A stretch of 12,761 nucleotides of DNA from Candidatus Heimdallarchaeota archaeon (GTDB lineage: Archaea > Asgardarchaeota > Heimdallarchaeia > Heimdallarchaeales > Heimdallarchaeaceae), in NCBI GenBank assembly GCA_018238545.1, contig JABCTC010000067.1:1-12761 (forward strand), in the 5' to 3' direction. Both the position numbers and the translations under genes were made by a program. Under the pieces are notes generated by a model. It was given only the letters and a program-made list of their open reading frames with translations, made no database searches and was not told the origin of the DNA. Below, piece by piece: positions 6,619-12,759 of the stretch (within the stretch, counting starts at the first letter, position 1; the number at the start of each line of letters is the position of its first letter).

Positions 6619-7392
6619 ATGTTAAACGAAATCCAAGAATTAAACAAAGAAATAAGAAGTTGTAAAAATTGTTCACTCTGGGAAAGTAGAATAAATGCAG
6701 TTTGTGGTATGGGACACCATAATAGCAATTTAATGCTTATTGCTCAAGCACCTGGTGAAATGGAAGATAGGGATGGAACGATGTTCATTGGTCCTTCAGG
6801 GAAAGTATTAGAGGAATTACTACAACATGCTAAAATAAAAAGAGAAGAAATTTACATGACAAATCTCATTAAATGCATGTTACCAAAGAATAGAAAACCT
6901 AAACAAGAAGAGATCCAGATATGTAGCCATTATTTAGAGGAAGAAATAAGAATAATTAATCCAGGTATAATCGCTACTTTAGGGTATTATTCAACAAAAT
7001 ATATTTTTCAGAAATACTTAATCCCTTTTCCTTTATCTAGAGAAGAATTAAAAGAAGTTTTCGGGAAGTTGTTTCTAGCAGCAAATAAGAAAATACTACC
7101 TTTGGGACACCCAGCTTCGATACTTTACAATGATTCATTAAGAAAAAAAATGATCAAAAATTATAAAAAATTGAAGATAATAATGTATGATTGTAAATGG
7201 TATCCTACTTGCCCAATGAAAAGGTTCTATGAGGAAGGTTTACTAGAAAGGAAGTGGATACAGAATTATTGTAAAGGAGATTGGGAAAGCTGTATTCGTT
7301 ATCAAATGGAAGAAAAAGGAGAATATCATTCAGATTATCTGCTTCCAGATGGGAGGATAAATGAAAAACTAAGAAAGAAGGTTTTAAGATGA
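6619..7392 (+). CDS. udg: Uracil-DNA glycosylase, family 4-like ([4Fe-4S]), with an extra C-terminal 4-Cys domain
   Basis: Fe-S ligands C15, C18, C86, C102. Motif A is AQAPG-E-ED (canonical GEAPG), followed by FIGPSG, YMTNLIKC and motif B HPASILY. C-terminal extension from ~M189. Confidence 0.92.
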   Translation: MLNEIQELNKEIRSCKNCSLWESRINAVCGMGHHNSNLMLIAQAPGEMEDRDGTMFIGPSGKVLEELLQHAKIKREEIYMTNLIKCMLPKNRKPKQEEIQICSHYLEEEIRIINPGIIATLGYYSTKYIFQKYLIPFPLSREELKEVFGKLFLAANKKILPLGHPASILYNDSLRKKMIKNYKKLKIIMYDCKWYPTCPMKRFYEEGLLERKWIQNYCKGDWESCIRYQMEEKGEYHSDYLLPDGRINEKLRKKVLR

Positions 7393-9520: not shown

Positions 9521-9860
9521 ATAACATTTGATTACATTGCTATATGCTTTTCTTTCTTATTACACAAAGAAATAAGGTGCGGGTAATGGTTCTAAAAGGT
9601 TTTAATATGAAGGATTTTTTAAGAAATATTTACAAAAGTTATTATCCAATATAATAATTTAAAACTTGTACCTAAGGTTGTACAAAACTTCTTTATGCTT
9701 CTTCCAATCCCAAAAAACATTTGATTTCTTAACTGAAAACTCAAAATATCATATAAACCCGCAAAGTTGATTAATGTGTTTAACTTATTATTTATTTGAT
9801 ACACCAGATGTGAAAAAAATGAAAAAATTAATCACAAACAGGAACTATTCACTATTCGCT

Positions 9861-9868
9861 TTTATAAA
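9861..9868. promoter_or_regulatory. TATA box (palindromic TTTATAAA)
   Basis: Perfect archaeal TATA consensus. On + it would place a TSS near 9891-9895, at the start of the structured island. The box is palindromic and the purine-rich BRE-like flank is on the minus-strand side, so orientation is ambiguous. Confidence 0.4.
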
Positions 9869-9893
9869 ATAATTTTGTCATAAAGTCATATTA

Positions 9894-10045
9894 AAAGTAT
9901 TGGTGATCCGAAAGCCTTGCCTAAACGCACGGTGAACGGGGTAGGAGGATACGTGATGTATCCACTAAGAGTGAGTATAGAGTGTCTTCGCCCTATATCA
10001 TGAGCTCTAAGCACGACATGTACCTAGCTTTGTCTAAGAAGACAA
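9894..10045 (+). ncRNA. Candidate structured ncRNA or leader with a canonical kink-turn, family unknown
   Basis: 9901-10030 has 63/130 G+C (48%) versus 13/60 and 12/60 in flanking 60-mers. It contains hairpin GGAUAC/GUAUCC (9947-9963), a long K-turn hairpin (9965-10011), a 5' stem GCCUU/GGGGU (9914-9942) and a possible closing helix 9894-9905/10021-10031. Confidence 0.65.
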
Positions 10046-10188
10046 GAAGACAAATAAGCATCATTAATTAGGCTTTCCTTATAACAATTTGAAAAAATCT
10101 ATTTGAAATCAAAAAAAAAGAAAGAGTGAAAGACGTTAACTTAGCTTTCTAGACATTTTTGCCTATATTTCGCATACCTATAATTCTC

Positions 10189-10210
10189 TCTGTGATGATG
10201 TCTGTGATGA
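10189..10210 (+). repeat. 10-bp direct repeat TCTGTGATGA x2
   Basis: Copies at 10189-10198 and 10201-10210, at about the point where flavodoxin similarity begins. Confidence 0.6.
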
Positions 10211-10607
10211 CTCTGAGACTATTGAAGATTATAATCTACTAGTTATTGGAACTTGGTCAATGATGTTTAAACTCAGAAGTAAAAGTAAAAGATGGCTAAC
10301 AAAACTTAGTAAAAAGAAAATTAATGGTAAAAAAGTTGCACTCTTTTTCACAAGCGCAGGACCTGAAGAAGTAATCCCTGGTACACAAGAAACTAATCCT
10401 AAATTGATTAAAAAAATGGTATTTGAAACAATGGAGAATATAATCAATCGAGAAAAAAAGGTAAGTACTCTTGATGATCGTTTCTATTGTAAGGGGGCTT
10501 TTCGCATGATGTGTAAGATAATGAATAATGAAGGGCACCCAACAGATGAGGAACTAGAGCAAGCTAGAGCATTTGGAGAAATGTTAAAAGACAAATTTGA
10601 AACATGA
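10203..10607 (+). pseudogene. 5'-truncated flavodoxin-family gene (ORF track 10260-10607)
   Basis: The frame is open upstream of ATG 10260 and reads TIEDYNLLVIGTWS (flavodoxin beta3, DYDLLVIGSPT-like), then INGKKVALFFTSAG and GHPTDEELEQARAFGEML. Beta1 and the FMN-phosphate loop (YxSxxGNT) are absent, and an in-frame TAA lies at 10137-10139 with no ATG/GTG/TTG between it and 10260. Confidence 0.75.
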
Positions 10608-10671: not shown

Positions 10672-12759
10672 TTATTTTCTTCTTCTGAAGAGCAAACCTA
10701 AAACTACTATGATTGGAACAAATAAGATGAGTGATAGGTAGCCAAATTCAGGAACATATATTGGATAATCTAAAGGATTATTTGGATCTGTTCCTTCAGC
10801 TACTTCTTCTCCGTCCGAATACCCGTCGTTGTCAGAATCCCAATCTAATGGATCTGTTCCTTCAGCTATTTCTTCGCTGTACGGAAGTCCATCTCCGTCA
10901 AGATCATAGGTATAAATATTTGTCATATAGTATAAATCATCCATGGTCCAGTGGCTTTGGTATCCCAATGTTCCATTTAATGTGATTCTACTTATCTCTG
11001 AATCTTCAGAGTAAATTTCCACAAATTTGTTTACAGAAGACGGTTCGACGCTCACGTTAAAGATAAGAACATCTTCAGAAGAATAAGCTAAAACATCTAT
11101 ATTATAATCATTAGGTGAACAGATATAGAAACTCGTGTACATGATTGGTATTGTAAAAGTCATATTAGGATTTGATTCATGACTGTAAGCAACGGTGCTT
11201 CCTGAATTAGGCGGATAGAGTGAACTACCTTCAGATTTCCAAGACTCAAATCCTGCTGAGAAAGTTATATGAGGATATACATCCAAGTAACTATCTGGAT
11301 AATCTTCGAAATCTAATAAAAATTCAAAAGTTTCCTTATACTCCTCAAAATACAAAGTATCAATCGACCAGTAATTCTCAAAATCAGTAGCGCCTGAAAT
11401 CGAAATTCGATGAATGAAACCTCCTACGGAATACAATTCTACAAGCTGATTTTTAACACTTGGTTCAACGTCAACAATCTGTATTAGAACATCATCTACA
11501 CTATAAGCTTCTACTTGTATATCATAATCCGCAACGGCACAGACATAAAAACTCACATAGGCTATCGGAATATCAAATGTGATATTGCTTACATGTTCAT
11601 TAGAATACATAACAATATCACCCGACTGTGGTGGGTAATTTGCGTTTGAAGATGAATCCCAAGTTATATAATCTGGAGAAAATGTTACACCAGCATAAAG
11701 ATCCTCTATAAATGTACCTGACGCCAGTTCATCAAATGTTAGTAATTGATTTTCGCCTGGTGTGTATTCAATATGACATAGATCATCCATAATCCAGTAA
11801 CTTTGAAAGTCAGTATCTCCAGTAAAAGTTATATTATGTATCAGGCCTAGAGTTGATTTTAATGTTACGTATTGATGTACAGTATTAGCATAGACATATG
11901 CCTTTTCTAACAAAATTCCACTCTCACTATATGCTAGAACCTGCATATTATAATCTGAACCTATGTTAATATACATTGAAACAGCTTCAACAGGGAAAGA
12001 GAATGTTATATTTGGCATCAGTTCATGAGTATAGACTACATTGCTTCCTGAATGTGGAGGATAGAGAGGGTGAGCAGATGAATCCCAAATTGTGAAACCT
12101 GGAGTGAAAGACAGACCTGCATAGTTGCCATCAACTACAGTGCTATCAGCTAAATCCTCAAAATCTATAAGATTCGGTGTTGGGGAAACAAATTCTATAT
12201 AGCTTAATGTATCCATTGTCCAATGCCAATTGAAATCTACTATCCCACTTGCAGAAATATTATAGATTCTTCCTAAAGGTGAGTTAAATTCAATATACTG
12301 GTTTATCGTATTAGCTGTAATTGATATCTCTTCTATTGCTATATTTTGATTAGTGTATGCAGTGAAAACAAGATTATAATCAGAAACAGCTGTTGAAACA
12401 AATAATCCTACTTTCTGAATAGGTATATCAAAAACAAACCAGTTGTTTACTTCATTACTTACAGCTACATTTTCACCTGATTCTGGTGGATAATATGTAC
12501 TACCAGTAGAGTTCCATATTGAAAATCCAGGCGAAAAATCTAATCCTGGATATGAAGATCCAATTGGATCAGAGTCACCAAGATCTTCAAAATCTATTAC
12601 AGCTTCCCATGGAGCTTGTTTAATCAGTGGTTCATCAGTAGTTAACGAGCTACCTTCTTGTTGCATTGTATCATTTAAGCTGTTTACAGCTGTTTGATTC
12701 AATGAGAAACATAAAATTAGTGTTATAGCCAGCGCTATACTTTGTTTTATTCTTTTCAT
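10672..12759 (-). CDS. Cell-surface protein: signal peptide, four ~142-aa beta-rich repeats, Ca-binding DxDxDG (TSP3-like) motifs and a PEF(G)-CTERM-type sorting signal
   Basis: Signal peptide [19 protein letters not shown]. Repeats start at V54, L197, L339 and L481 (IDFEDL...YxGxxFSPG...YPPxSGxxVxYS...WxMDxL). Then [30 protein letters not shown]-terminus VPEFG-TM-RRRK. Confidence 0.92.

What the first reader, a model, noticed from the sequence alone, without database searches (positions are those of the whole stretch)
9965..10011. Canonical kink-turn (L7Ae-binding motif) inside the RNA island
Seen: C-helix GUAUAG(9975-9980)/CUAUAU(9993-9998); 3-nt bulge C-A-U (9999-10001, L3=U); tandem sheared G10002.A9974 and A10003.G9973; NC helix AGAGU(9968-9972)/GCUCU(10004-10008), extended by CU/AG. 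The apex is GUG-UCUU-CGC. Known: this is the standard K-turn geometry bound by archaeal L7Ae (Snu13/15.5K family), with the same UGA...CAUGA orientation as in archaeal H/ACA guides. However, the nearest ACA (10016) is too close for a canonical H/ACA pocket and there is no C/D pair. Inference: an L7Ae RNP of a non-standard type.
Basis: partly seen in the sequence, partly recalled or inferred. Interest (0 to 1): 0.75.

Follow-up and report, generated by a model that had tools for sequence, protein, structure and literature searches.

The report
Kink-turn in Asgard transposon guide RNA
The RNA bend motif is real and conserved, but it belongs to the guide RNA of a jumping gene's RNA-guided DNA cutter (TnpB) in an Asgard archaeon, here left behind without its gene; similar motifs in other archaea are already known to bind the host protein L7Ae.

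Summary
The K-turn is present at the stated coordinates (1 of 3000 shuffles as good). It is not a snoRNA-like RNP. Window 9905-10064 is the right end and omegaRNA scaffold of a tnpB-only element with 22 other matches in this Heimdallarchaeota genome. Here the gene is deleted: a 39-nt left end (9866-9904, after the target motif TTAT) is fused to the scaffold. A hairpin loop pairs with the element's last six bases, with covariation, and the flank from 10065 would be the guide.

The K-turn is conserved: 76 of 106 homologous ends, against about 10% of shuffles. The bulged U is kept in 81 of 84, the C-helix shows compensatory changes, and the motif does not depend on the tnpB stop codon. It recurs in three other Asgard families and in 0 of 8 bacterial relatives sampled.

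Precedent exists: Pyrococcus RNAs from tnpB 3' ends bind L7Ae through K-turns, and the bacterial RAGATH-18 reRNA has one. This scan also noted K-turns in Thorarchaeota and Thermococcus TnpB RNAs. L7Ae is encoded here; binding in vivo is inferred. Verdict: new member of a known kind. Open: is L7Ae a true subunit of the TnpB complex, and which transposase moves these inverted-repeat ends?

The parts
9819..9865 (+). First ~16 codons of a host gene cut by the insertion (450-aa homologue in G016); its promoter could read into the scaffold (inferred)
   Evidence: 86% DNA match to G016 stops exactly at 9865; 16-aa match
9862..9865 (+). Target/TAM-like motif TTAT just outside the left end
   Evidence: TTAT precedes 14 of 19 tallied family left ends; contigs of two other runs leave the window at 9865
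9866..9904 (+). Truncated left end (39 nt) with two GTC units 8 bp apart; inverted copy of the right-end motif; tnpB promoter and gene deleted
   Evidence: Scores 28.4 with a profile built without it; all genome sites scoring 18.8 or more are element ends, background at most 15.9
9905..10064 (+). omegaRNA (reRNA) scaffold = last ~32 tnpB codons plus right end
   Evidence: 5 mismatches in 160 nt to three other copies; homologues continue upstream into the RuvC-III NADxN motif; synonymous constraint starts ~6 nt upstream of 9905
9947..9963 (+). Hairpin whose loop (9953-9958, GUGAUG) forms a pseudoknot with the last six element bases
   Evidence: Stem 100% paired, pseudoknot 99% paired with both-sided changes; five covarying loop/end types
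9965..10011 (+). K-turn hairpin: 2n G9973, 1n A9974, L1-L3 9999-10001, 1b G10002, 2b A10003; 3b.3n G.U; -1b.-1n U.G
10030..10064 (+). Right-end subterminal repeats (AGACAA at 10040 and 10048), small hairpin 10030-10045, terminus CATCAT 10059-10064
   Evidence: Shared sequence among copies ends at 10064; left-end profile also finds reversed right ends
10065..10084 (+). Flank that would serve as the guide; length assumed from known TnpBs
   Evidence: Unique flank; no second TAM-adjacent match of 9 nt or more in the genome

Best explanation
The island is the omegaRNA scaffold at the right end of a tnpB-only (IS1341-type, IS607-related) element of Heimdallarchaeota, and the K-turn is a conserved structural part of it. 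In full copies, the transcript of the tnpB 3' end folds into a 5' domain, a hairpin whose loop pairs with the element's last six bases, and a kinked stem. It loads TnpB (rearranged RuvC), which uses the next ~20 flank bases as guide next to a TTAT-like motif (inferred from known TnpBs). The K-turn bends this stem and is probably capped by host L7Ae, which would stabilise the RNA but need not be essential (inferred, about 55%). This copy is a deletion derivative: left end joined to the scaffold at an ATC microhomology, gene and own promoter lost. It is either silent or a trans-acting guide read from the host promoter upstream. Shown: identity, ends, conservation, covariation. Inferred: folding in vivo, L7Ae binding, expression, nuclease activity.
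For: 22 other matches in the genome, most directly preceded by tnpB (NCBIfam guided_TnpB E 3e-42). K-turn in 76/106 ends and 35/52 representatives against 9.8% of shuffles; L3=U in 81/84; the UGA is the stop in only 31/84, after the stop in 32 and inside the ORF in other frames in 21. The Val codon whose wobble base is 2n is GTG in 32/33 against 29% in the gene body. The -2 pair is U-A 16, C-G 13, switching several times on the TnpB tree. One clade carries the motif 7 nt further out. 2n variants are mostly A or U, both known natural variants (PMC4316175). 3b=C is commonest, which folds well in Mg2+ (PMC8191799). L7Ae gene present. Precedent for L7Ae binding: PMC3124441.
Against: About a quarter to a third of ends fail the detector and some clearly lost the motif; related TnpBs of two Asgard families, Methanohalobium and bacteria lack it, so it is not universally needed. 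The window's own 3b.3n (G.U) and -1b.-1n (U.G) are not the best-folding types. Kin are not independent, and alignment A2 left out 14 diverged representatives. No listed contig bridges the left-end/scaffold join. No cognate transposase was found.
Confidence: 0.82

Rival explanations
1. The K-turn is purely architectural: it folds in Mg2+ or through TnpB contacts, as the bacterial RAGATH-18 reRNA apparently does, and L7Ae binds only in vitro or by chance.
For: 3b=C in 39/84 predicts ion-induced folding. The ISFba1 reRNA structure description mentions no L7Ae-type partner. The motif is lost in some lineages.
Against: L3 points into solvent in simple K-turns yet is U in 81/84, which suggests a protein pocket (own knowledge: L3=U in box C/D and U4). 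The motif occurs in archaeal relatives and in 0/8 bacterial ones (small sample).
Confidence: 0.35
2. L7Ae is a required third subunit of the Asgard TnpB RNP, or regulates tnpB mRNA processing or translation through a K-turn over the stop codon.
For: Conservation across four Asgard families, a relocated motif and K-loop-like versions; host L7Ae has the loop-9 Glu-Ile-Val signature linked to K-loop binding (link from own knowledge).
Against: Repeated loss in close relatives with intact TnpB. The motif's position relative to the stop codon varies freely, which argues against translational control.
Confidence: 0.2
3. The motif is a by-product of coding sequence (Arg-Val-Ser codons plus a TGA stop) and of a generic hairpin.
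For: In this subfamily UGA 10001-10003 is the stop codon, and the 5' GA lies in coding sequence.
Against: Kept after the stop and out of frame in 53 of 84; wobble G fixed; compensatory pairs.
Confidence: 0.04
4. The short left-end/right-end copy is an assembly join, or a recombinant of two separate insertions, not a single deleted element.
For: The left end is unlike those of the right end's subfamily and has no match within 3 mismatches in 29 other genomes. The right flank does not continue the interrupted gene. No listed contig spans the join.
Against: The join has only a 3-4 nt ATC microhomology, at the spacing where family left ends carry AATC, too short for an assembler overlap. Left flank plus left end occur together in an independent study (run X2). 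Other deleted copies exist in the genome. A recombinant origin would not change what the K-turn is.
Confidence: 0.3

Closest known systems
Pyrococcus abyssi sRkB, sRkC, sRk52 (Phok et al. 2011, PMC3124441); Sulfolobus L7Ae-bound transposase RNAs cited there
   Same: Archaeal sense RNAs from the 3' end of OrfB/TnpB of IS605/IS607 elements, some in gene-less copies, with K-turns or K-loops shown to bind L7Ae (gel shift; footprint and GA mutants for sRkB/C).
   Different: Different phylum; no sequence match was tested. Those papers predate the omegaRNA concept, so L7Ae was not tested inside a TnpB RNP. Here there is one K-turn rather than two.
RAGATH-18 reRNA of IS607 TnpB (ISFba1; PMC11061315, PMC8191799)
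   Same: A K-turn inside a TnpB guide scaffold; crystal structure, and binds A. fulgidus L7Ae in vitro.
   Different: Bacterial; canonical 3b.3n A.G; E-loop; Rfam finds no match here.
TnpB-omegaRNA (OMEGA) systems, RuvC-II-rearranged class (TnpB2/RIIr; TvTnpB active, PMC10530073), and standalone omegaRNAs (PMC10691335)
   Same: Scaffold overlaps the tnpB 3' end and ends at the element boundary; terminal pseudoknot; Gly at RuvC-II with an alternative Glu; gene-less copy.
   Different: K-turn stem; TTAT target motif; ends are inverted repeats; activity untested.
IS607-family elements (PMC6188088)
   Same: Imperfect inverted repeat between the ends, short direct repeats, no clear target duplication; TnpB 31-35% identical to TnpBs lying behind IS607 transposases in three bacteria.
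   Different: Both junctions read AT, not GG; the inverted repeat reaches the termini; no tnpA in any copy.
[quoted passage not shown]
   Same: L7Ae-type K-turn with L2 purine and L3 U; orientation as in H/ACA hairpins and D'/C' motifs.
   Different: No C/D pair, 4b.4n inverted, ACA not conserved, multicopy mobile context.

Membership tests
Standard K-turn | 3-nt bulge followed by tandem G.A/A.G between C and NC helices | tested here: met
Standard K-turn | Motif conserved and helices covary in homologues, independent of coding | tested here: met
Standard K-turn | Kinked fold in ions and L7Ae binding | not testable with these tools
   needs FRET or EMSA; host L7Ae present
TnpB omegaRNA | Overlaps the tnpB 3' end on the sense strand and ends at the right boundary, followed by a variable flank | tested here: met
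TnpB omegaRNA | Pseudoknot between a 5' hairpin loop and the terminal bases | tested here: met
TnpB omegaRNA | Cognate TnpB with catalytic residues in the genome | tested here: met
   RuvC-I D, RuvC-II G with alternative E, RuvC-III D read in the sequence
TnpB omegaRNA | Expressed, bound by TnpB, guides cleavage | not testable with these tools
   experiment needed
IS200/IS605 (Y1) | Y1 TnpA available and same-strand subterminal hairpins without inverted ends | tested here: not met
   No Y1 found in the 24 genomes of the genus searched (72-92% complete); ends are inverted repeats
IS607 (serine) | Imperfect inverted repeat and short direct repeats at the ends | tested here: met
IS607 (serine) | GG core at both junctions | tested here: not met
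   junctions read AT; PMC6188088 says most, not all, members end in GG
IS607 (serine) | Cognate serine transposase sharing the end motif | tested here: inconclusive
   Serine recombinases exist in 22/24 genomes but none of 35 loci carries the end motif
Standalone omegaRNA | Both ends kept, effector gene absent, scaffold near complete | tested here: met
   the join itself is not bridged by a listed contig
Standalone omegaRNA | Mobilised as a unit (several gene-less copies) or acting in trans | tested here: inconclusive
   single copy of this join
H/ACA guide RNA | Conserved ACA at the canonical distance from a pocket | tested here: not met
   ACA within 16 nt in only 12/35 representatives; no Rfam hit
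Box C/D guide RNA | Paired C (RUGAUGA) and D (CUGA) boxes | tested here: not met
   3b mostly C and 4n mostly G

The most novel reading that the evidence does not exclude
Asgard TnpB nucleases have co-opted the host snoRNP core protein L7Ae as a needed third subunit, through a K-turn/K-loop selected in several lineages, and they travel in inverted-repeat elements with an AT core moved by a transposase not yet identified.
Probability: 0.2. Interest if true: 0.75.

Novelty: new member of a known kind. Interest (0 to 1): 0.42.

Why it matters
It turns an apparently unknown RNA into a defined TnpB guide with predicted ends, target motif and fold, so the system can be tested directly. If L7Ae is a real partner, archaeal TnpBs may look weak or dead in E. 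coli or human-cell screens only because L7Ae is missing, and co-expression would be a simple fix. It would also link an RNA-guided DNA nuclease to snoRNP assembly in the archaea closest to eukaryotes. If not, it is one more architectural K-turn in a TnpB scaffold.

Tried and rejected
Rfam: no relevant family in the window or in five homologous loci. tRNA/tmRNA: none. Sigma-70 promoter scan is not suited to archaea. H/ACA, C/D and SECIS-like readings rejected (orientation, no conserved ACA, mobile context). Stop-codon artefact rejected. Search for the mobilising enzyme failed: no Y1 found in the genus genomes searched; serine recombinase, Y1 and Cas1-like loci lack the end motif; a look-alike end at contig C86 was single-copy chance. 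No viral homologues with the patterns used. Sequencing runs: no RNA holder listed, which says nothing about expression; parts without contig cover were not taken as absence. No second genomic target for the guide. The fixed-anchor count mis-anchored some rows, so frequencies are quoted. In one search the printed 'window score' had an off-by-one error; the genome scan value (28.4) is the valid one. Coordinates printed are 1 too low. Literature searches found no paper on K-turns or L7Ae in Asgard TnpB RNAs; the library lacks most subscription papers.

Full report
Observation. The sequence at 9965-10011 is as described: C-helix 9975-9980/9993-9998, bulge C-A-U, tandem G10002.A9974 and A10003.G9973, NC helix 9968-9972/10004-10008. 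It folds as a two-helix hairpin (z -2.37). A K-turn detector finds this one site in the island, none on the minus strand, and 1 of 3000 shuffles as good. Loose K-turn patterns arise in 36% of shuffles, so conservation had to decide.

What the island is. A DNA search shows a multicopy repeat, with matches in 25 of 29 other genomes of the family. There are 22 other matches in this genome. Relatives are titled Ca. Heimdallarchaeota. In the other copies the upstream DNA encodes the C-terminus of a 415-425 aa TnpB (NCBIfam guided_TnpB), in ~1.44-kb elements with no other gene. The protein has Gly at RuvC-II and an alternative Glu, the rearranged layout that is active in TvTnpB (PMC10530073). Shared sequence ends at CATCAT 10059-10064. 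The hairpin loop 9953-9958 is complementary to those six bases, and the two change together across the family. This is the terminal pseudoknot expected of a TnpB omegaRNA (own knowledge of ISDra2; analogous pseudoknots). Synonymous sites become fixed about 6 nt upstream of 9905, so the window keeps nearly the whole scaffold.

This copy. Upstream of 9905 there is no tnpB, but 9866-9904 is a family left end. It scores 28.4 with a profile built without it, where the background tops out at 15.9. It follows TTAT, the usual motif. A homologue of the left flank in G016 matches up to exactly 9865 and continues as a 450-aa gene, and contigs of two other runs leave the window at the same base. So the element inserted after TTAT in a host gene, and the gene, promoter and most of the left end were later lost at an ATC microhomology (inference). 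Caveats: no listed contig spans the join, the left end is unlike those of the right end's subfamily, and the right flank does not continue the interrupted gene. A recombinant of two insertions is possible, an assembly join less so.

Is the K-turn selected? In this subfamily UGA 10001-10003 is also the stop codon, so I tested independence. A strict K-turn is present in 76 of 106 distinct ends and 35 of 52 representatives, against 9.8% of shuffles. With 2n relaxed (84 ends), L3 is U in 81 while L1 varies freely. The UGA is the stop in 31, lies after the stop in 32, and is inside the ORF in other frames in 21. The 2n G is a Val wobble base and is G in 32 of 33, against 29% in the gene body. The -2 pair alternates U-A/C-G (16/13) with several switches on the TnpB tree. 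The apex ranges from a 3-nt loop to long stems, and one clade has the motif 7 nt further out. On a 32-row alignment, chosen without the most diverged ends, 94.5% of cells pair and 42 show both-sided change against 13 in shuffles (kin inflate this). More distant TnpBs (38-46% identity) carry it too: 10/17, 3/3 and 11/24 (K-loop-like) in three other Asgard families, 0/6 and 0/4 in two more, 0/2 in other archaea and 0/8 in bacteria.

How it likely works. Full copies make an RNA from the tnpB 3' end that loads TnpB and uses the flank as guide beside TTAT, to cut empty sites and favour retention of the element (inferred from known systems). The K-turn bends the second stem. The commonest 3b=C predicts folding in Mg2+ alone (PMC8191799). 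The near-invariant, solvent-facing L3 U (PMC4316175) points to a protein pocket, and the host encodes a typical L7Ae. I put L7Ae binding in vivo at about 55% and strict requirement at about 20%, since close relatives have lost the motif. The window copy may be silent or may be read from the interrupted gene's promoter; its guide has no second target in the assembly.

Element type. Left and right ends are imperfect inverted repeats of about 30 bp built from 8-bp units, co-varying within elements. No Y1 transposase was found in 24 genomes of the genus, and bacterial relatives of this TnpB sit behind IS607 transposases. It looks like IS607 (PMC6188088) but both junctions read AT rather than GG, and no serine-recombinase locus shares the ends. 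Membership is therefore not claimed.

Comparison with what is known. Pyrococcus sRkB, sRkC and sRk52 derive from OrfB 3' ends and bind L7Ae through K-turns or a K-loop, and the same is cited for Sulfolobus (PMC3124441). The IS607 RAGATH-18 reRNA has a crystallised K-turn that binds L7Ae in vitro. Standalone omegaRNAs are known. Earlier notes of this scan report K-turns in Thorarchaeota and Thermococcus TnpB RNAs (unchecked, not counted as support). I found no paper on Asgard TnpB K-turns, or on L7Ae inside a TnpB RNP.

Verdict. Real, conserved K-turn in a TnpB omegaRNA scaffold; new member of a known kind; interest 0.42. The value lies in a cheap test of whether L7Ae is a host cofactor of archaeal TnpB.

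Noticed in passing
window 10140-10607: Flavodoxin-like ORF lacks its first ~40 codons; similarity to intact relatives starts near 10213, so it is probably a 5'-truncated pseudogene. The same sequence is in run X1.
   Followed up: partly
window 9819-9865: Stub of a gene with a signal-peptide-like start whose 450-aa homologue is intact in G016; the rest was not found in this assembly.
   Followed up: partly
L041:290-330 and 1700-1725; whole family: tnpB-only elements with ~30-bp inverted ends and AT at both junctions have spread recently (copies over 95% alike), yet no matching transposase was found.
   Followed up: partly
G000 contigs C124, C78, C62, C8: A second tnpB family ends in ACTCAT with a true subterminal hairpin, the same loop-to-end pseudoknot and a possible K-loop.
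   Followed up: no
L035, L036 (G000 C82, C71): IS607-type serine transposases followed by unusually long (648 aa) TnpB-like ORFs, several copies.
   Followed up: no
L037-L039 and L231-L245: Stand-alone 250-270 aa serine recombinases, about two per genome, in nearly all genomes of the genus.
   Followed up: partly
L162:1489-1809: 106-aa Cas1-like N-terminal fragment without CRISPR context in the locus.
   Followed up: no
L127, L130, L132, L136, L138, L140: Clade in which the K-turn is rebuilt 7 nt further out on a lengthened NC helix.
   Followed up: partly
window 6619-7392: Uracil-DNA glycosylase family protein with a Cys-rich C-terminal extension.
   Followed up: no
window 10672-12759 (-): 695-aa protein with four internal repeats, TSP3-like Asp-rich repeats and a PEF-type C-terminal anchor.
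   Followed up: no
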